From IMG/VR virus record IMGVR_UViG_3300045988_152359: a stretch of 28,308 nucleotides of DNA. One strand, 5' to 3'. The stretch's first letter is position 1. Every line of letters starts with the position of its first letter. Source of the stretch: a virus (lineage: Duplodnaviria; Heunggongvirae; Uroviricota; Caudoviricetes). Under the pieces are notes generated by a model. The model saw only the letters and a program-made list of their open reading frames with translations. It was not told the DNA's origin and did not search any database. A program made the translations under genes and the position numbers. This document shows, piece by piece, positions 11,727 through 18,444 of the stretch.

Positions 11727-11897
11727 ATGTTTGTCAAACCTGTTAAAGGGCGGTCAGTGCCTGACCCTGCCCGCGGCGACCTTTTGCCCGCCGAAGGGCG
11801 AAATGTTGATGAGAACAACTACTGGCTGCGCCGTGAAGCAGCGGGTGATATCCGGCGCGTGAATAAAAAGGTGAACACCGATGACGATAAGCTTTAA
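11727..11897 (+). CDS. Small conserved protein preceding the tail sheath (DUF2635-like), not in the ORF track
   Basis: 56-aa ORF MFVKPVKGRSVPDPARGDLLPAEGRNVDENNYWLRREAAGDIRRV..., GAGG RBS 6 nt upstream, 3' end overlaps the sheath start; this family (as I recall it) is typical upstream of Mu-like sheath genes. Confidence 0.5.
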   Translation: MFVKPVKGRSVPDPARGDLLPAEGRNVDENNYWLRREAAGDIRRVNKKVNTDDDKL

Positions 11898-13377
11898 CAC
11901 CATTACGTCGAATACGCTGGTTCCGCTGTTTTATGCGGAAATGGATAACCAGGCGGCGAATACTGCACAGGACAGCGGGGCATCGTTGCTGATTGGTCAC
12001 GCCAATAACGGTGCAGAGATTGTTGCCAACAGTCTGGTGCTGATGCCGTCGGCAGACTATGCACGCCAGATTTGTGGTGCGGGAAGTCAGCTGGCGCGTA
12101 TGGTCGAGGCTTATCGCCAGACCGACCCGTTTGGCGAGCTGTATGTGATTGCCGTTCCGGAAGCCACAGGCGCGGCGGCAACGGTTACGCTGACAGTGAC
12201 CGGGGCGGCAACCGAAACCGGCACGGTGAATGTTTATGTGGGACGTACCCGCGTGCAGGCACCGGTGACCAACGGCGATAACGTCACGACGATTGCCAGC
12301 AGTATCAAAGATGCCATTAATGCCGTTCCGGCCCTGCCGTTTACGGCCTCATCTTCGGCAGGCGTGGTCACGCTGACCGCGCGTCATAAGGGGCTTTGCG
12401 GGAATGAAATTCCTGTCAGCCTCAATTACTACGGCTTTGGTGGGGGCGAAGTGCTGCCAGCGGGCGTACAGATTGCTGTGGCGACGGGGAGCGCCGGAAC
12501 GGGCGCTCCGGTTCTCACCGGCGCGGTGGCTGCAATGGCGGATGAGCCGTTTGATTATATTGGCCTGCCGTTCAACGACACGGCCTCCGTTAACACGCTG
12601 GTGACAGAGATGAACGATACCAGCGGTCGCTGGAGCTATGCGCGTCAGCTGTATGGTCATGTGTATACGGCAAAGATCGGCACGCTGTCAGAACTGGTGA
12701 ACGCAGGTGACCAGTTTAACCAGCAGCACATTACCCTGGCGGGATACGAAAAAGAGACCCAGACGCCTGCCGACGAGCTGGCGGCAAGCCGTACCGCCCG
12801 CGCAGCGGTGTTTATTCGCAACGATCCGGCACGTCCCACGCAGACCGGTGAGCTGGTGGGTATGCTGCCTGCGCCGAAGGGGAAACGGTTCACGATGACC
12901 GAACAACAGACCCTGCTGTCTCATGGCGTGGCAACGGCGTATGTCGAAAGCGGGGTGCTGCGCATTCAGCGTGATGTCACCACGTACAGGAAAAACGCTT
13001 ACGGTGTTGTGGATAACAGCTACCTCGACAGCGAGACGCTGCATACCAGCGCGTATGTGCTGCGCAAACTGAAATCCGTCATTACCAGTAAGTACGGGCG
13101 TCACAAGCTTGCCAGCGACGGTACCCGCTTTGGTCCCGGTCAGGCGATTGTCACACCGGCGGTGATCAAAGGGGAACTGCTGGCAACCTACCGTCAGCTT
13201 GAGCGTGCGGGGATCGTGGAAAACTACGAACTGTTTAAGCAGTACCTGGTTGTGGAGCGTGATGCCAGCGATCCGAACCGCCTGAACACGCTGTTCCCGC
13301 CTGACTATGTTAACCAGTTGCGTGTTTTTGCCGTGGTTAACCAGTTCCGTCTTCAGTATTCAGAGGAGTCTGCATAA
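11881..13377 (+). CDS. Contractile tail sheath protein (Mu gpL-like)
   Basis: 498 aa, followed by a small tube gene, the frameshifted chaperone pair and the tape measure gene - the canonical myovirus order. Confidence 0.85.
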   Translation: MTISFNTITSNTLVPLFYAEMDNQAANTAQDSGASLLIGHANNGAEIVANSLVLMPSADYARQICGAGSQLARMVEAYRQTDPFGELYVIAVPEATGAAATVTLTVTGAATETGTVNVYVGRTRVQAPVTNGDNVTTIASSIKDAINAVPALPFTASSSAGVVTLTARHKGLCGNEIPVSLNYYGFGGGEVLPAGVQIAVATGSAGTGAPVLTGAVAAMADEPFDYIGLPFNDTASVNTLVTEMNDTSGRWSYARQLYGHVYTAKIGTLSELVNAGDQFNQQHITLAGYEKETQTPADELAASRTARAAVFIRNDPARPTQTGELVGMLPAPKGKRFTMTEQQTLLSHGVATAYVESGVLRIQRDVTTYRKNAYGVVDNSYLDSETLHTSAYVLRKLKSVITSKYGRHKLASDGTRFGPGQAIVTPAVIKGELLATYRQLERAGIVENYELFKQYLVVERDASDPNRLNTLFPPDYVNQLRVFAVVNQFRLQYSEESA

Positions 13378-13733
13378 TGGCCCGTATCGGGGGAACCTGT
13401 TATTTCAAAATTGACGGTCAGCAGCTATCGCTGACCGGCGGCATTGAGGTGCCCATGAACAGGACGGTCAATGATGACATCATCGGCCTGGACGGTTCAG
13501 TGGACCGCAAGGAAACTCACCGTGCGCCTTATGTTAAAGGGACCTTCAAGGTGCCGAAGAATTTTCCGGTGAGCAAAATCACCTCGTCTGATGAGATGAC
13601 CATCACAGCCGAGCTGGCGAACGGTCAGGTCTATGTACTGTCGTCTGCCTGGCTGCACGGCGAAGCAAACCATAATGCCGAAGAAGGGACGGTTGATCTT
13701 GAGTTCCACGGTGAAGAAGGGGATTACCAGTAA
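13377..13733 (+). CDS. Tail tube protein (Mu gpM-like)
   Basis: 118 aa, ATGA-coupled to the sheath gene. Confidence 0.8.
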   Translation: MARIGGTCYFKIDGQQLSLTGGIEVPMNRTVNDDIIGLDGSVDRKETHRAPYVKGTFKVPKNFPVSKITSSDEMTITAELANGQVYVLSSAWLHGEANHNAEEGTVDLEFHGEEGDYQ

Positions 13734-14002
13734 TGAAAGAGCTTGAGTTAAAGAAACCGATTACCGCTCATGGCGAGACACTCTCCGTACTGGAGTTTGA
13801 TGAGCCCACCGGGAAAGATGTCCGCGAGCTGGGGTATCCCTACCAGATGAATCAGGATGAGTCCGTCAGACTTCTGGCGCATGTGGTATCGAAATACATT
13901 GTGCGGCTGGCGAAAGTGCCGCAAAGCTCTGTCGACCAGATGTCTCCGGCAGACCTGAATGCAGCGGCGTGGCTTGTGGCTGGTTTTTTCCTCCAGGCCT
14001 GA
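13733..14002 (+). CDS. Tail assembly chaperone (G-like, upstream frame)
   Basis: 89 aa immediately before the tape measure gene; ends in a slippery run; overlaps a -1 frame ORF. Confidence 0.75.
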   Translation: MKELELKKPITAHGETLSVLEFDEPTGKDVRELGYPYQMNQDESVRLLAHVVSKYIVRLAKVPQSSVDQMSPADLNAAAWLVAGFFLQA

Positions 14003-14151
14003 CGGCTGAATACCTCACTGATCGCTTCTTTGACTGCGCCAGTTACTGGCGCATTAATCCTTTCGAATTGCTGAATATGCCGATCAGTGAAATTCCCTTG
14101 CTGGTCAGTCAGGCAAACAGGATAGAGCAGGAGAAACGCACACATGGCTGA
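13969..14151 (+). CDS. Tail assembly chaperone frameshift extension (T-like part; expressed as a fusion from 13733 by -1 programmed frameshift)
   Basis: ORF in the -1 frame relative to 13733..14002; slippery heptamer T_TTT_TTC at 13984-13990 within the overlap; ends 8 nt into the tape measure gene. Confidence 0.65.
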   Translation: MACGWFFPPGLTAEYLTDRFFDCASYWRINPFELLNMPISEIPLLVSQANRIEQEKRTHG

Positions 14152-15979
14152 ATTTGAGCTTAAGGCGTTGATCACCGGTGTCGACAGGCTTTCTCCGGCG
14201 CTGTCGAAAATGCAAAAGAAAATCCGGGGATTTAAACGCCAGGCGGAAGAAGCGTCACAGGGTGGGCTGGCGCTTGGTGGCGGACTGGCAGCGGGTCTGA
14301 CGCTTTCCCTGAAATCTTATGCCGATCAGGAAAACGCCGCCACCGGGCTGAAAGTCGCCATGATGGATGCGAACGGCGAGGTCGGAAAGAGCTTTCAGGA
14401 CATCAATAAACTGGCTATTGGCCTGGGTAACCAGCTACCCGGTACAACGGCTGATTTTCAGAACATGATGCAGATGCTGGTGCGTCAGGGGATCCCGGCA
14501 GAAAACATTCTGGGCGGTGTGGGTAAAGCGACGGCTTATCTTGCGGTACAACTGAAAAAAACACCGGAAGCGGCTGCTGAGTTTGCCGCAAAGATGCAGG
14601 ATGCTACCGGAACGGCGTCAGAAGACATGATGGGGCTGTTCGACACTATCCAGAAGGCGTTTTATCTGGGCGTTGACGATACCAACATGTTGTCCTTCTT
14701 CACTAAAACCAGCTCTGTTCTGAAGATGGTGAACAAGGACGGTCTTCAGGCTGCACAGAGCCTTGCCCCCATCAGCGTCATGATGGATCAGATGGGGATG
14801 AACGGGGAGTCGGCAGGTAACGCCCTGCGAAAAGTTATCCAGTCCGGATTAAGCGTTAAGAAAATCAGGGACGTCAATAAAATCATGGCCCGCCAGAAAC
14901 TCGGGGTACAGCTCGATTTTACTGACGGCAAAGGGAGTTTTGGCGGTCTTGATAACATGTTCAGGCAACTGGCAAAGCTGCGAAAACTGACCGACGTTAA
15001 ACGAACTGGTGTACTTAAGGCAATATTTGGTGATGATGCCGAAACCCTTCAGGTGGTCAATGCGCTGATCGATAAAGGAAAGGATGGCTACGATCAGATC
15101 CAGCAGAAGATGAATAAACAGGCCAGCCTGAATAAACGTGTTCAGGCACAGCTTGGTACGCTGTCCAACCTGTGGGAGGCAATGACGGGGACCGCAACTA
15201 ACGGCCTTGCGGCTATTGGCGGCGCATTTTCTGGTGACGCTAAAAATATCACGCAATGGCTGGGGGAGTTGGGGGAGAAATTCACGAAGTTTGCGGATGA
15301 AAATCCCCGGGTTATTCGCGGCGTCGTCGGGCTTGCTGCTGGTCTTGCGATTCTGAAACTGGGATTGATGGGCGTTGGCGGTGCCATCAGTATTGTCAGC
15401 AGGATCATGTCGATGACGCCGATTGGCATGATTGCGACGGCGATAGCCCTGGCTGCGGGATTAATTATCACTAACTGGGATGTTGTCGGACCTTATTTTA
15501 AGAAACTCTGGGAAACCATTGGTCCTTATTTTGAGGCTGGCTGGGAACTCCTTAAGAAAGTTTTTGCCTGGTCGCCGCTGGGGATGGTGATCAATAACTG
15601 GGGGCCGGTTGTTAAGTGGTTTCAGGATATGTGGGACAAGCTGAAGCCAATTATTGAGTGGTTTACCGACAGTTCCGGTGACACGGTCGATGCCATTAAC
15701 TCTGCGCAGTGGGGCGCGGGTGCTTATGATGCTTATGGGACGGGAATACCGGCGCGGGGATACACACCTTATCCGGCGGTAGATCCGGCTCAGTCAAACA
15801 ACGCCTCCGGTGCCACAGGCCCGAATCCCTTCATGATTAACAAAGCTTCTGCGCCAAAAGTTGATGGTGAGATCAAGGTCTCTTTTATGAATTCGCCTCC
15901 GGGTATGCGGGTTATGGAAACGCGATCCAGCGGTTTTGATGTCAGCCATGATGTTGGCTATACGCGCTTTGGCAGGTAA
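14144..15979 (+). CDS. Tail tape measure protein
   Basis: 611 aa, Ala/Gly/Leu-rich helical protein with hydrophobic segments, directly downstream of the chaperone pair. Confidence 0.9.
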   Translation: MAEFELKALITGVDRLSPALSKMQKKIRGFKRQAEEASQGGLALGGGLAAGLTLSLKSYADQENAATGLKVAMMDANGEVGKSFQDINKLAIGLGNQLPGTTADFQNMMQMLVRQGIPAENILGGVGKATAYLAVQLKKTPEAAAEFAAKMQDATGTASEDMMGLFDTIQKAFYLGVDDTNMLSFFTKTSSVLKMVNKDGLQAAQSLAPISVMMDQMGMNGESAGNALRKVIQSGLSVKKIRDVNKIMARQKLGVQLDFTDGKGSFGGLDNMFRQLAKLRKLTDVKRTGVLKAIFGDDAETLQVVNALIDKGKDGYDQIQQKMNKQASLNKRVQAQLGTLSNLWEAMTGTATNGLAAIGGAFSGDAKNITQWLGELGEKFTKFADENPRVIRGVVGLAAGLAILKLGLMGVGGAISIVSRIMSMTPIGMIATAIALAAGLIITNWDVVGPYFKKLWETIGPYFEAGWELLKKVFAWSPLGMVINNWGPVVKWFQDMWDKLKPIIEWFTDSSGDTVDAINSAQWGAGAYDAYGTGIPARGYTPYPAVDPAQSNNASGATGPNPFMINKASAPKVDGEIKVSFMNSPPGMRVMETRSSGFDVSHDVGYTRFGR

Positions 15980-16039
15980 TGAAAAATTAATCTGTTAATG
16001 AGTCCCACTCCGGTGGGATTTTTTATGTACGGAGTTTAT

Positions 16040-17368
16040 ATGACGTGGAAAGACAGACTTCAGGACGCGTCATTTCGCGGTGTGCCGTTTAAGGTTGAAG
16101 AAGAAAGTGCGGGAACCGGTCGTCGTGTGGAAACGCACGAATACCCGAACCGCGACAAACCCTATACCGAAGACCTGGGGAAAATCACTTTCCGCCCGTC
16201 CATCACAGCTTATGTGGTGGGAGATGACTGCTTTGACCAGCGCGATCGCCTGATTGACGCGCTGAATAAACCCGGTCCCGGCACGTTTGTCCATCCGACT
16301 TACGGTGAGCTGAAAGTCTGTGTTGACGGGGAAGTTCGGGTCAGCACATCGAAGAGTGAAGGGCGTATTGTCCGCTTTGACCTGAAGTTTGTCGAAGCGG
16401 GAGAACTCTCTTACCCCACTTCAGGTGCGGCGACGGCGCAGACGCTGATGTCATCCTGTTCTGCACTGGATGACTGCATCAGTGACAGCTTCAGTGGTTT
16501 CAGTATCGATGGCGTGGCAGATTTTGTGCAGAACGACGTCGTCGGTAATGCCAGCACAATGCTTGGGTATGTTTCTGATGCGATGAAAGTGGTGGATTCT
16601 GCCGTATCGGATGCCGCCAGGCTGTTGCAGGGGGATATCTCGGTACTTCTGCCGCCGCCATCGTCAGGCAAAAATTTCGTTGAGCAGGTGCAGAAAATGT
16701 GGCGTACCGGGAAACGCCTTTATGGTAACGCCAGCGACCTGGTCACCATGATCAAAACGCTTTCCGGTGTCAGCCTCGGCAGCGATCTGCAACCGCGCGG
16801 CGTCTGGAAAACGGACAGTAAAACCAACGCCACGGCGACGCAGCAGCGTAACGTGGTTGCCAGCACCCTTCGTACGACCGCAATCAGCGAAGCGGCGTAT
16901 GCCGTCACACGATTGCCTGCGCCCACAACTTCCGCGGTGATGCAGAATGCCACAATGGGGCAGTCAACAACACCCGCGCAGAGCACCGGCTGGCCTTCTG
17001 TCACGCATCCGGCACTGAACAATGCACCGGCGGTGAAAAACACGGTTGACCTGCCAACGTGGGAAGAACTGACCGACATTCGCGACACACTGAATACGGC
17101 AATTGATAAGGAGTTGTCCCGTACAACCAGTGATGCGCTGTTTCTGGCGCTGCGCCGGGTGAAAGCAGATCTGAATGCGGATATCAACACGCGCCTTGAA
17201 CAGTCTGCACGGATCATTCAGCGCACGCCGGATGAGGTTTTACCCGCGCTGGTGCTGGCGGCGACCTTGTTTGATAACGCGGCGCGTGACGCGGACATTA
17301 TCCGGCGTAATGCCATTACGCATCCCGGCTTTGTGCCGGTGATCCCTCTGAAGGTGCCAGTGCAATGA
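16040..17368 (+). CDS. Mu gpN-like DNA circularisation protein (tail/baseplate-associated)
   Basis: N-terminus MTWKDRLQDASFRGVPFKVEEESAGTGRRVETHEYPNRDKPYTEDLG matches the gpN-family motif; GGAG RBS before ATG 16040 (track start 15998 rejected). Confidence 0.8.
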   Translation: MTWKDRLQDASFRGVPFKVEEESAGTGRRVETHEYPNRDKPYTEDLGKITFRPSITAYVVGDDCFDQRDRLIDALNKPGPGTFVHPTYGELKVCVDGEVRVSTSKSEGRIVRFDLKFVEAGELSYPTSGAATAQTLMSSCSALDDCISDSFSGFSIDGVADFVQNDVVGNASTMLGYVSDAMKVVDSAVSDAARLLQGDISVLLPPPSSGKNFVEQVQKMWRTGKRLYGNASDLVTMIKTLSGVSLGSDLQPRGVWKTDSKTNATATQQRNVVASTLRTTAISEAAYAVTRLPAPTTSAVMQNATMGQSTTPAQSTGWPSVTHPALNNAPAVKNTVDLPTWEELTDIRDTLNTAIDKELSRTTSDALFLALRRVKADLNADINTRLEQSARIIQRTPDEVLPALVLAATLFDNAARDADIIRRNAITHPGFVPVIPLKVPVQ

Positions 17369-18444
17369 ACGACAATGTCACGCTACGGGTAAATGGCCGG
17401 GAGTGGAATGGCTGGACATCGGTGCGCATCGGTGCCGGTGTTGAACGACTGGCGCGGGATTTCAGTGTGGAGATCACCCGCCAGTGGCCGGGAGATGAGG
17501 GTATTACCACGCTTCAGTCGCGCATTAAAAACGGTTCAAAAGTGGAGGTGCTGATTGGTGATGAGCTGGTGATCACCGGCTGGGTGGAGGCGACGCCCGT
17601 TCGTTACGATGCCCGTTCGGTCAGCACCGGTATTGCCGGACGTAGTCTGACGGCTGACCTGATTGACTGTGCAGCCGAACCGACACAGTTTAACGGACGC
17701 TCGCTGGTGCAGATTGCGCAGGCGCTTGCTGCGCCTTTCGGCATTGAGGTGGTGAACAGCGGTGCGCCGTCGGGTGTTATTCCTGATGTTCAGCCTGATC
17801 ACGGTGAAACGGTGATTGAGGTAATCAACAAAATACTCGGTCAGCAGCAGGCACTGGCTTACGACGACCCGCACGGCAGGCTGGTGATTGGCGGTATTGG
17901 CTCAACGCGGGCACATACTGCGCTGGTACTCGGGGAAAACATCCTTTCCTGTGATACGGAGAAGAGTATCCGGGAGCGGTTTTCAGTTTACCAGGTGGCG
18001 GGGCAGCGTGCCGGAAACGACGATGATTTCGGTGAGGCCACCACCACCGCGCTGCGAGCCCGCACAGAGGACGCATTTATTGCCCGTTACCGTCCGATGT
18101 ATATCAGGCAGACAGGGCAGGCTACGGGGGCAGGCTGTATTGCCCGTGCGGACTTTGAAGCCCGACTACGGGCGGCGCGGACGGATGAAACCACCTATGT
18201 GGTGCAGGGCTGGCGACAGGGTAACGGTACGCTGTGGCAGCCCAACCAGCGGGTGATTGTCTTCGATCCGGTCTGTGGTTTCGACAATACCGAACTGCTT
18301 GTTTCGGAAGTCACGTTTACTCAGGACCAGAACGGCACCCTGACGGAAATCCGTGTCGGCCCGCCTGATGCTTATCTGCCTGAACCCGAAGCCCCCGGCG
18401 CGCGAAAAAAGAAAAAAGCCAGAGTACAGGAGGACCCGTTCTGA
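17365..18444 (+). CDS. Mu gpP-like baseplate hub / tail protein
   Basis: 359 aa, ATGA-coupled to the gpN-like gene; conserved order N-P-baseplate. Confidence 0.75.
   Translation: MNDNVTLRVNGREWNGWTSVRIGAGVERLARDFSVEITRQWPGDEGITTLQSRIKNGSKVEVLIGDELVITGWVEATPVRYDARSVSTGIAGRSLTADLIDCAAEPTQFNGRSLVQIAQALAAPFGIEVVNSGAPSGVIPDVQPDHGETVIEVINKILGQQQALAYDDPHGRLVIGGIGSTRAHTALVLGENILSCDTEKSIRERFSVYQVAGQRAGNDDDFGEATTTALRARTEDAFIARYRPMYIRQTGQATGAGCIARADFEARLRAARTDETTYVVQGWRQGNGTLWQPNQRVIVFDPVCGFDNTELLVSEVTFTQDQNGTLTEIRVGPPDAYLPEPEAPGARKKKKARVQEDPF

What the first reader, a model, noticed from the sequence alone, without database searches (positions are those of the whole stretch)
13733..14151. Programmed -1 frameshift in the tail assembly chaperone pair upstream of the tape measure gene
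The 89-codon ORF (13733-14002) and the overlapping ORF (13969-14151) are in frames consistent with a -1 slip. The overlap contains T_TTT_TTC at 13984-13990 in the correct register of the upstream frame (GGT TTT TTC to TTT TTT CCT). The predicted fusion ends ...WLVAGFF-FPPGLTAEYLTDR.... The same chaperone-pair arrangement is conserved before tape-measure genes, as in lambda G/GT.
Basis: partly seen in the sequence, partly recalled or inferred. Interest (0 to 1): 0.4.

Follow-up and report, generated by a model that had tools for sequence, protein, structure and literature searches.

The report
Tail-chaperone frameshift in SfV-like prophage
This is a real but ordinary signal that makes a small share of ribosomes slip back one base, so one phage gene gives a short and a long tail-assembly helper protein, as already shown for phage P2; public genome records do not mark it.

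Summary
ORF1 (13733-14002, 89 aa) is a Phage_TAC_7 tail assembly chaperone (PF10109, E=1.9e-16). It lies between the tail tube gene and the tape measure gene of an SfV/SfI-like prophage. T_TTT_TTC at 13984-13990 is the only in-register slippery heptamer in ORF1. The -1 frame then runs to TGA 14149-14151, 8 nt into the tape measure gene. That fills the only large gap (141 nt) in the tail operon.

(139 aa), not FF-FPP.

Comparative evidence is strong:
- 125 of 136 distinct relatives keep an in-register TTTTTT[C/G].
- Codon-position variation switches from frame 0 to frame -1 at the site.
- Most relatives have no start codon for the -1 ORF.
- The seven relatives with no slippery T run carry the extension in the +1/-2 frame.

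The closest known case is phage P2 E/E+E' rather than lambda G/GT. P2 has the same Pfam family, GGT TTT TTG at the same domain end, products of 91 and 142 aa, and the same 8-nt overlap. No canonical stimulatory structure was found. This is a new, unannotated member of a well-known kind, so interest is low.

The parts
13377..13733 (+). Tail tube gene (118 aa), immediately upstream; its stop overlaps the chaperone start
   Evidence: PF10618 Tail_tube, E=2.4e-33. Annotated as tail tube protein in RefSeq, SfV and vB_EcoM-689R6.
13733..14002 (+). Tail assembly chaperone gene, frame-0 product of 89 aa (P2 gpE-like)
   Evidence: PF10109 Phage_TAC_7, E=1.9e-16, residues 4-86 on model positions 2-78 of 79. 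Also phrog_166 tail protein. RefSeq calls it 'phage tail assembly protein'. SD duplex energy upstream is -7.9 kcal/mol.
13984..13990 (+). Slippery heptamer T_TTT_TTC in X_XXY_YYZ register (frame-0 codons GGT TTT TTC)
   Evidence: Only in-register heptamer in ORF1. All 7 columns are invariant in 15 SfV-clade sequences. 125 of 136 distinct relatives keep an in-register TTTTTT[C/G]. It is homologous in position to the P2 site GGT TTT TTG.
13990..14151 (+). -1 frame extension (E'-like, 53 aa plus TGA), read only after the slip; the whole fusion is 13733-13990 joined to 13990-14151, 139 aa
   Evidence: Frame and translation. Variation by codon position in the -1 frame is 13/6/33 for 14003-14076 and 20/11/34 for 14077-14143; pN/pS is 0.14-0.56, and the other frames contain stops. 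phrog_32181, unknown function, E=2e-41. tblastn finds both halves in phages at about 40% identity. An E'-only profile against P2 E' gives hhalign probability 81%, E=1.2e-5.
14144..15979 (+). Tape measure gene (611 aa); its ATG lies 8 nt before the end of the -1 ORF (ATGGCTGA)
   Evidence: PF10145, E=1.3e-26. The RefSeq CDS start is the same. SD duplex energy is -7.4 kcal/mol. P2 E+E' overlaps gene T by the same 8 nt.
14035..14053 (+). Perfect 8-bp hairpin or palindrome TGCGCCAG-TTA-CTGGCGCA inside the E' region; role unknown, and probably not part of the frameshift signal
   Evidence: Folding. All 8 pairs are invariant in 12 sequences. The four degenerate third positions in the stem are invariant in 55 versions while the loop third position varies. 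It starts 44 nt after the heptamer. It occurs once in the window. No Rfam match.

Best explanation
This is the tail assembly chaperone pair of an SfV/SfI-type temperate myophage (HK97-like head, Mu-like contractile tail). It is expressed by programmed -1 ribosomal frameshifting and is the counterpart of phage P2 E/E+E'.

Most ribosomes translate 13733-14002 and release the 89-aa chaperone. A minority slip when tRNA-Phe molecules sit on UUU (P site, 13985-13987) and UUC (A site, 13988-13990). Both move back one base onto UUU UUU (13984-13989). Decoding then resumes at CCU (13990) in the -1 frame and continues to UGA at 14149-14151. The product is a 139-aa protein with the same 86-residue N-terminal chaperone domain plus a 53-residue extension.

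By analogy with lambda gpG/gpGT and P2 gpE/gpE+E', the shared domain coats the tape measure protein. The extension of the rare long form links that complex to the tail tube subunit. The fixed ratio between the two forms is what matters, and neither protein ends up in the virion.

Shown here: the anatomy, the family assignment, conservation of the site and register, protein-coding selection in the -1 frame, and the lack of independent initiation signals. Inferred: that the slip is ribosomal, its efficiency (probably a few percent or less, with no canonical stimulator), and the binding partners of the two domains.
For: 1. Anatomy. The 141-nt stretch 14003-14143 is the only large gap in the tail operon (the others are -26 to +18 nt), and the -1 ORF fills it exactly.

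2. Family. ORF1 is PF10109 'tail assembly chaperone E, 41 or 14'. P2 gpE is in the same family. In both proteins the domain match ends at the slip codon: residue 86 here and residue 85 in P2.

3. Same site and geometry as the annotated P2 case. P2 has GGT TTT TTG where the window has GGT TTT TTC. The products are 91 and 142 aa in P2 against 89 and 139 aa here. Both long forms overlap the tape measure gene by 8 nt.

4. Conservation. EPP-1, AH07, ST64B, F1055, SfIV, phiP27, BgVeeders33, DVM-2008, PG1 and PBb002, plus 11 bacterial genomes, all keep an in-register T_TTT_TT[C/T/G] at the aligned Phe and a -1 ORF running to the tape measure start. Among IMG/VR loci, 125 of 136 distinct versions do so.

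5. Correlated change. The 7 Burkholderia-type loci with GGC TTC TTC (no slippery run) carry the E'-like peptide in the +1/-2 frame instead.

6. Coding selection switches frame at the site. Variation at codon positions 1/2/3 is 44/28/153 in frame 0 upstream. It is 13/6/33 in frame -1 directly downstream (p=1.2e-5). pN/pS is 0.14-0.56.

7. No independent initiation. GTG 13969 has no SD (+0.4 kcal/mol, against -7.4 to -8.6 for the tube, chaperone and tape measure genes). 13 of 18 relatives have no ATG/GTG/TTG in the -1 frame upstream of the heptamer.

8. Motif competence. U_UUU_UUC and U_UUU_UUU belong to the efficient H_HHU_UUY class in E. coli, giving 0.12% and 0.33% unstimulated and 7.6% and 10.2% with the IS3 pseudoknot (PMC4066793).

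9. Cassette exchange. The chaperone, its extension and the tape measure gene are swapped as one block between this prophage and SfIV. Positions 13771-16051 are unrelated while the flanks are 97-98% identical. This fits co-adapted partners.
Against: There are no expression data for this element, so no product was observed. No stimulatory element sits at canonical spacing: the first 60 nt downstream fold no better than shuffles (z=0.07) and there is no conserved SD-like sequence upstream. The bare heptamer gives only about 0.1% in a reporter. Four SfV-like variants have GGG TTT TTC or GGG TTT TTT, which breaks the P-site half of the heptamer. The extension does not match Pfam Phage_P2_GpE (PF06528) at E<=10, so homology of that half to P2 E' rests on a profile comparison. 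A one-base U insertion by RNA polymerase in the T6 run would give the same protein and cannot be excluded from sequence alone.
Confidence: 0.88

Rival explanations
1. The same 139-aa protein is made by transcriptional slippage. RNA polymerase adds one extra U in the T6 run, and a fraction of mRNAs then carry the two ORFs in one frame.
For: The site is a homopolymeric T6 run (T7 in the ST64B-type cassette). Inserting one U gives GGU UUU UUU CCU, which is the identical G-F-F-P junction. Conservation of the run fits this model equally well. UUUUUUU is under-represented in E. coli genes in all three frames, possibly for this reason (PMC4066793).
Against: From general knowledge, productive slippage in bacteria normally needs runs of about 8-9 or more; six T is short. 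The P2 site in the same family is annotated and described as a -1 translational frameshift (PMC3091744). The PG1, PBb002 and P2 sites end in G (T_TTT_TTG), and all sites found are in the ribosomal X_XXY_YYZ register. However, the register is partly fixed by the conserved Phe codons.
Confidence: 0.06
2. ORF 13969-14151 is an independent small gene (60 aa) translated from its own GTG start.
For: It is listed as an ORF with a GTG start. One phage record annotates it as a separate hypothetical protein. PHROGs holds it as its own family, phrog_32181.
Against: There is no SD before GTG 13969 (+0.4 kcal/mol, against -7.4 to -8.6 for the adjacent genes). 13 of 18 relatives have no start codon in the -1 frame upstream of the heptamer, and in many the -1 frame opens only 7-16 codons before it. 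Coding-type selection covers 14003-14076, which is upstream of the first in-frame ATG at 14077.
Confidence: 0.02
3. Nothing is recoded. The -1 ORF is a chance open frame or a decaying remnant in a non-coding spacer, and only the 89-aa protein is made.
For: RefSeq and most GenBank records annotate only the 89-aa gene and leave 14003-14143 empty. Given the protein sequence, the heptamer is expected by chance at p=0.22 in a single sequence.
Against: The -1 peptide is conserved at the protein level in phages that share no detectable DNA similarity here. Third-position-dominated variation and pN/pS below 1 are seen only in the -1 frame, and the other frames contain stops. The heptamer is conserved through synonymous turnover of neighbouring codons. 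The homologous P2 arrangement is annotated as essential.
Confidence: 0.03

Closest known systems
Phage P2 gpE / gpE+E' (-1 frameshift at T_TTT_TTG in the FETUD tail operon; Christie et al. 2002, as cited in PMC3091744)
   Same: The Pfam family of the upstream product is the same (PF10109). The gene order is the same: sheath, tube, chaperone, tape measure. The slip codons GGT TTT TTN sit at the C-terminal end of the domain in both (residues 84-86 here, 83-85 in P2). Product sizes are close (89 and 139 aa here, 91 and 142 aa in P2). Both long forms overlap the tape measure gene by 8 nt. Neither has a downstream structure (PMC3091744). The extension shows remote similarity (hhalign probability 81%, E=1.2e-5).
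   Different: The last base of the heptamer is C rather than G. Overall identity is about 21%. The extension does not reach Pfam PF06528 (Phage_P2_GpE). The host phage has a Mu-type baseplate and tail module, not a P2-type one. The frame-0 stop lies 16 nt after the start of the heptamer, against 25 nt in P2.
Phage lambda gpG / gpGT (-1 frameshift at G_GGA_AAG; Levin et al. 1993; Xu et al. 2004, 2013, 2014, as summarised in PMC5009743)
   Same: The logic and the position before the tape measure gene are the same. A short and a long chaperone share an N-terminus. The long form is made at low level by a -1 slip. Neither product is in the virion.
   Different: There is no detectable sequence relationship, since only PF10109 matches ORF1. 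The heptamer is different. Lambda is a siphovirus with no sheath. The partner of the extension (the tube protein gpV in lambda) is only inferred here.
Phage Mu gp41 (tail assembly chaperone with a -2 frameshift; Xu et al. 2004, as cited in PMC5009743 and PMC2628397)
   Same: The rest of the tail module is Mu-like: sheath, tube, DNA circulation protein and gp44-46-like baseplate proteins. Mu gp41 also scores on PF10109, though just under the curated cut-off (24.7 against 25 bits).
   Different: Mu gp41 is 144 aa with its own family (PF23746), and its extension is in the +1/-2 frame. In the window that frame closes after 16 codons, and the extension is in the -1 frame. So the tail is Mu-like but the recoding solution is P2-like.
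dnaX and IS3/IS911-type bacterial -1 frameshift signals
   Same: All use an X_XXY_YYZ heptamer with tandem tRNA slippage. U_UUU_UUC is used by some IS elements.
   Different: Those signals rely on an upstream SD-like element and/or a downstream hairpin or pseudoknot 5-9 nt away. None was found here.

Membership tests
Frameshifted tail assembly chaperone pair of long-tailed phages (Xu et al. 2004 class) | Two overlapping ORFs located between the major tail (tube) gene and the tape measure gene | tested here: met
   Tube gene 13377-13733, ORF1 13733-14002, -1 ORF running to 14151, tape measure gene 14144-15979.
Frameshifted tail assembly chaperone pair of long-tailed phages (Xu et al. 2004 class) | [quoted passage not shown] | tested here: met
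   T_TTT_TTC at 13984-13990, starting 16 nt before the frame-0 stop codon. It is the only in-register heptamer in ORF1.
Frameshifted tail assembly chaperone pair of long-tailed phages (Xu et al. 2004 class) | The downstream ORF has no translation start of its own | tested here: met
   There is no SD at GTG 13969 (+0.4 kcal/mol). A start codon is absent in 13 of 18 relatives.
Frameshifted tail assembly chaperone pair of long-tailed phages (Xu et al. 2004 class) | The arrangement and slip site are conserved among relatives despite sequence divergence | tested here: met
   Conserved in 10 divergent phages and 11 genomes and in 125 of 136 distinct IMG/VR versions. The codon-position pattern switches frame at the site.
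Frameshifted tail assembly chaperone pair of long-tailed phages (Xu et al. 2004 class) | Both products are made in a fixed ratio, and both are required for tail assembly | not testable with these tools
   This needs protein detection and genetics. No expression data were found in the literature library.
P2 gpE family (Pfam PF10109 Phage_TAC_7) | The upstream product matches the family HMM above the gathering threshold | tested here: met
   60.3 bits against a cut-off of 25, E=1.9e-16, covering model positions 2-78 of 79.
P2 E' domain (Pfam PF06528 Phage_P2_GpE) | The -1 extension matches the family HMM | tested here: not met
   No hit at E<=10 for the 53-aa extension or for the fusion, whereas P2 E+E' scores 76 bits. 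A profile of 13 extensions against P2 E' gives hhalign probability 81%, E=1.2e-5 over 41 columns. Remote homology is therefore plausible, but the extension is not a member by the Pfam model.
Mu gp41-type chaperone with a -2 frameshift | The extension is encoded in the +1/-2 frame | tested here: not met
   The +1/-2 frame is open for only 16 codons and ends 5 nt past the ORF1 stop. PF23746 Gp41_Mu does not match ORF1.
Stimulated bacterial -1 PRF signals (dnaX / IS3 type) | A downstream hairpin or pseudoknot 5-9 nt from the heptamer, or an SD-like element 6-17 nt upstream | tested here: not met
   The 60 nt downstream give z=0.07. The nearest stable helices start 24 and 44 nt downstream. The upstream 17 nt vary at synonymous sites and are not SD-like. 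No Rfam match.

The most novel reading that the evidence does not exclude
The invariant 8-bp hairpin at 14035-14053 lies 44 nt downstream of the slip site. Its synonymous stem positions are frozen in 55 versions while the loop position varies. It might be a functional RNA or DNA element specific to the SfV-type chaperone and tape measure cassette. One possibility is a long-range modulator of frameshift efficiency; another is control of mRNA stability or of tape measure translation. Either would make this a frameshift site with a non-canonical, distant control element rather than a bare heptamer.
Probability: 0.1. Interest if true: 0.4.

Novelty: new member of a known kind. Interest (0 to 1): 0.15.

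Why it matters
The main value is for annotation. This prophage segment occurs in 1113 of 5426 complete E. coli genomes and in Shigella phages SfI, SfII and SfV. Every RefSeq or GenBank record inspected annotates only the 89-aa gene. They leave 141 nt blank or call a spurious 60-aa 'hypothetical protein'. Marking the ribosomal slippage would add a protein that is probably essential for tails, and would give phrog_32181 a function.

The case also shows that a Mu-like tail module can use the P2-type -1 solution, whereas Mu itself uses -2. Within one Pfam family the frame of the extension changes together with loss of the slippery run. The mechanism and biology are otherwise textbook.

Tried and rejected
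- Structure. AlphaFold2 on the single fusion sequence gave pLDDT 47 and pTM 0.30, which is too poor for a fold search, so none was run.
- PDB sequence search returned only chance hits to light-harvesting proteins.
- NCBIfam has no model for either product.
- Rfam gave nothing above noise. The promoter and terminator scan found nothing relevant.
- Xu et al. 2004 and Christie et al. 2002 are not in the paper library. I could not check whether SfV is already listed there, and their content is cited second-hand from PMC5009743, PMC2628397 and PMC3091744.
- The single genome-contig scan, run with one protein, returned only close relatives plus one false hit, L022. The 11-sequence alignment was too diverse for a locus scan.
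- The 'fused' database proteins P0001-P0006 looked at first like natural in-frame versions. They are singletons with scrambled junctions and are most likely indel-ridden assemblies.
[quoted passage not shown] It is in SB21, not in the chaperone gene sb15.
- The long-range helix 14015-14023 / 14081-14089 (z=-3.25) has almost no covariation support (covariation term -0.1).
- Reinitiation after the frame-0 stop was rejected. The first -1 frame ATG is at 14077, downstream of the conserved SYWRINPFELL motif and of a region already under -1 frame coding selection.

Full report
**What is in the sequence.** The window is a prophage of the SfV/SfI/SfII type. Positions 13300-14300 are 98-99% identical to those Shigella phages, and the segment is present in 1113 of 5426 complete E. 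coli genomes. About 70% of the first 25 kb is collinear with SfI, SfII and vB_EcoM-689R6. The tail operon reads as follows:

| Gene | Coordinates | Evidence |
|---|---|---|
| Sheath | 11881-13377 | PF04984 and related sheath domains |
| Tube | 13377-13733 | PF10618 |
| ORF1 (89 aa) | 13733-14002 | PF10109 Phage_TAC_7 'tail assembly chaperone E, 41 or 14', E=1.9e-16 |
| Tape measure | 14144-15979 | PF10145 |
| DNA circulation protein, Mu gp43-like | 15998-17368 | PF07157 |
| Baseplate hub, Mu gp44-like | 17365-18444 | GpP/gp44-like domains |

**Checking the observation.** ORF1 is in frame 2 and the ORF 13969-14151 is in frame 1, which is the -1 frame. That frame is in fact open from 13861. The frame-0 codons are GGT TTT TTC at 13982-13990, so T_TTT_TTC (13984-13990) is in the X_XXY_YYZ register. 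It is the only such heptamer in ORF1. After a tandem -1 slip the next codon is CCT (13990). The fusion is therefore ...WLVAGFF|PPGLTAEYLTDR..., 139 aa. No variant of the slip (tandem, P-site only, or one codon earlier) gives three Phe. The +1/-2 frame closes after 16 codons. The -1 ORF stops at TGA 14149-14151, 8 nt inside the tape measure gene (ATGGCTGA). The 141 nt it fills are the only sizeable gap in a tail operon whose other junctions range from -26 to +18 nt.

**Is it more than chance?** Not in this sequence alone. With the residues G-F-F fixed and codons drawn from the window's own usage, T_TTT_TTY appears in 22% of resamplings. The weight comes from comparison.

- *Protein-level conservation of both halves.* tblastn with the conceptual fusion finds both halves, in two frames, in phages with 35-45% identity. 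These are ST64B, F1055, SfIV, phiP27 and BgVeeders33, plus EPP-1 and AH07 at 67-77%.
- *Conserved site and register.* Each of these keeps an in-register T_TTT_TT[C/T] at the aligned Phe-Phe, and so do DVM-2008, PG1 and PBb002 (T_TTT_TTC or T_TTT_TTG) and 11 bacterial genomes. Each also has a -1 ORF ending within a few nt of the tape measure start.
- *Larger sample.* Across 246 IMG/VR loci there are 136 distinct sequences, and 125 of them keep TTTTTT[C/G] in register.
- *Invariance in the SfV clade.* In an ungapped alignment of 15 SfV-clade sequences all seven heptamer columns are invariant, although the adjacent Ala codon uses all four synonymous forms.
- *Frame switch in the substitution pattern.* With 55 distinct versions, variation by codon position is 44/28/153 in frame 0 upstream of the site. 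It is 13/6/33 (p=1.2e-5) and 20/11/34 in the -1 frame downstream. pN/pS is 0.14-0.56 in the -1 frame, and the other two frames contain stops.

Coding therefore changes phase at the heptamer.

**Independent expression of the second ORF is unlikely.** GTG 13969 has no Shine-Dalgarno pairing (+0.4 kcal/mol, against -7.4 to -8.6 for the tube, chaperone and tape measure starts). 13 of 18 relatives have no ATG, GTG or TTG in the -1 frame upstream of the heptamer. That frame often opens only 7-16 codons before it. The first -1 frame ATG after the frame-0 stop is at 14077. This is downstream of the conserved motif SYWRINPFELL and of sequence that already shows -1 frame coding selection. Reinitiation therefore does not explain the conservation.

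Eleven of the 136 distinct versions lack the full heptamer.

- Four are SfV-like, with the synonymous change GGT to GGG. This leaves TTT_TTC or TTT_TTT, and the efficient U_UUC/U_UUU tetramers described in PMC4066793 remain.
- Seven are Burkholderia-type loci (L198-L204) with GGC TTC TTC. In exactly these the E'-like peptide (VFDLAYFW..SPA..) lies in the +1/-2 frame, as in Mu.
- Separately, the phage record IPK (marked UNVERIFIED) has the peptide in the -1 frame but with only a three-codon overlap and no obvious site.

Loss of the T run thus goes with a change of frame, which supports a causal link between heptamer and -1 decoding.

**What it is.** The closest known system is P2 E/E+E', not lambda G/GT. 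In the P2 RefSeq record E is 91 aa and E+E' is 142 aa. The record annotates a -1 translational frameshift, and E+E' ends 8 nt into the tape measure gene T. The P2 slip codons are GGT TTT TTG (V-G-F-L) at residues 83-85, and the window has GGT TTT TTC at residues 84-86. Both upstream products are PF10109, and in both the domain match ends at the slip codon. Conceptual fusions from 11 phages, including P2, align collinearly. The slip-site Phe, one Ala and one Pro of the extension are among the six invariant columns.

The extension itself is the less certain half. It hits no Pfam family, including PF06528, which recognises P2 E'. It belongs to phrog_32181, 'unknown function'. A profile of 13 extensions aligns to P2 E' with hhalign probability 81% and E=1.2e-5. 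That profile includes the P2-like PBb002 sequence, so this is moderate support only.

Mu has the most similar tail genes overall, yet it uses a 144-aa gp41 (PF23746) and a -2 shift. This prophage therefore combines a Mu-like tail with a P2-like recoding solution.

**How it most likely works.** A minority of ribosomes slip -1 with tRNA-Phe on UUU and UUC.

- *Motif strength.* According to Sharma et al. 2014, U_UUU_UUC and U_UUU_UUU belong to the most efficient heptamer class in E. coli. They give 0.12% and 0.33% alone and 7.6% and 10.2% with the IS3 pseudoknot. The P2 motif U_UUU_UUG gives 0.12% alone.
- *Stimulators.* I found none at canonical spacing. The 60 nt after the heptamer fold no better than shuffles, both here (z=0.07) and in P2 (z=-0.01). 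This agrees with what is reported for P2-like phages (PMC3091744). There is no Rfam match and no conserved SD-like element upstream.
- *Efficiency.* It cannot be predicted. The Atkins et al. review puts lambda at about 1 GT per 30 G and P2-like phages 2-3 times higher.
- *Function.* It is inferred from lambda and P2. The shared N-terminal domain binds the tape measure protein, and the extension recruits tube subunits.
- *Linkage to the tape measure gene.* The chaperone (from codon 13), the extension, the whole tape measure gene and about 50 nt of the next gene are exchanged as one block between this prophage and SfIV. Positions 13771-16051 are unrelated, while the flanks are 97-98% identical.

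**Rivals.**
- *Transcriptional slippage in the T6 run.* It would give the identical protein and cannot be excluded from sequence. Six T is short for that mechanism, and the homologous P2 case is described as translational. I give it about 6%.
- *An independent 60-aa gene.* About 2%.
- *No recoding at all.* About 3%.

The last two are contradicted.

**Novelty and score.** The kind is well known, from Levin 1993, Christie 2002 and Xu 2004. The site is positionally homologous to an experimentally studied one. None of the RefSeq or GenBank records inspected marks it. I found no paper in the library that describes it for SfV-type phages, but I could not read Xu et al. 2004 to see whether SfV is listed there. 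I file it as a new, unannotated member of a known kind. Interest is about 0.15, and the value lies mainly in annotation.

**Unexplained residue.** A perfect 8-bp hairpin (TGCGCCAG-TTA-CTGGCGCA) sits at 14035-14053 within codons C-A-S-Y-W-R. It is invariant in all SfV-clade sequences. Its four degenerate stem third positions never change in 55 versions, while the loop third position does (T 11, C 43, A 1). Only 7 of about 46 degenerate third positions outside the overlap are invariant. That gives roughly 2e-4 before correcting for scanning, and the effective number of independent lineages is small. The hairpin is 44 nt from the slip site, absent from the ST64B-type cassette, and has no known counterpart. 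I treat it as a lead and not as part of the signal.

Noticed in passing
window 14035-14053: A perfect 8-bp hairpin or palindrome, TGCGCCAG-TTA-CTGGCGCA, lies inside the E' coding region. All four degenerate third positions in the stem are invariant in 55 distinct SfV-clade versions, while the loop third position varies. It is 44 nt downstream of the heptamer, occurs once in the window, has no Rfam match, and is absent from the ST64B-type cassette. Its function is unknown.
   Followed up: partly
window 13771-16051: Mosaic cassette. Against phage SfIV the window is 97-98% identical up to 13770 and again from 16052, but unrelated in between. The chaperone from codon 13, the -1 extension, the whole tape measure gene and the first ~50 nt of the DNA-circulation gene have been exchanged as one block for the ST64B-type version.
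   Followed up: partly
L198-L204 (IMG/VR Burkholderia-type loci), about 1440-1616 in each locus; also L026 (phage IPK) 1141-1400: These relatives have GGC TTC TTC in place of the slippery run, and their E'-like peptide is in the +1/-2 frame, as in Mu. IPK (an UNVERIFIED record) has it in the -1 frame with only a 3-codon overlap and no obvious slip site. So the recoding mode differs within one Pfam family.
   Followed up: partly
L010 (Burkholderia phage BgVeeders33) 1056-1115: A strong stem-loop starts 7 nt after its G_GGT_TTT_TTC run (-26.8 kcal/mol, z=-3.55). That is canonical stimulator spacing, unlike the enterobacterial relatives. It may be a genuine frameshift stimulator in that phage.
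   Followed up: no
L048, L079, L085, L220 (IMG/VR SfV-like contigs), at the position equivalent to window 13982-13990: Four distinct versions carry GGG TTT TTC or GGG TTT TTT (synonymous GGT to GGG). This removes the first T of the heptamer and leaves only a U_UUC/U_UUU tetramer for A-site slippage. These prophages may frameshift less, or may be decaying.
   Followed up: no
window 14003-14143 and the equivalent stretch in public records (L001-L009): RefSeq (PGAP) and most GenBank records leave this 141-nt stretch unannotated. One record calls the 60-aa ORF a separate hypothetical protein. The same gap is likely present in over a thousand E. coli genome annotations.
   Followed up: yes
proteins P0001-P0006: The protein database holds a few apparently in-frame 'fused' versions (107-139 aa). 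Their junctions are scrambled and each is a singleton from a Logan or ENA assembly. They are most likely indel errors and not natural fusions. P0120 (Hamiltonella defensa) ends ...AGFFFPG and may carry a longer T run.
   Followed up: partly
window 14015-14023 with 14081-14089: A long-range helix, CACTGATCG/CGATCAGTG, makes the 100 nt after the heptamer fold better than shuffles (z=-3.25). The alignment gives almost no covariation support (covariation term -0.1, several broken pairs).
   Followed up: yes
literature (PMC5581363, PMC8944631): A Phage_TAC_7 family protein from a Burkholderia gladioli prophage (Bg_9562) is reported as a type III-secreted antifungal effector. That is an unexpected second role for this chaperone family. 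It was not examined for the window's protein.
   Followed up: no
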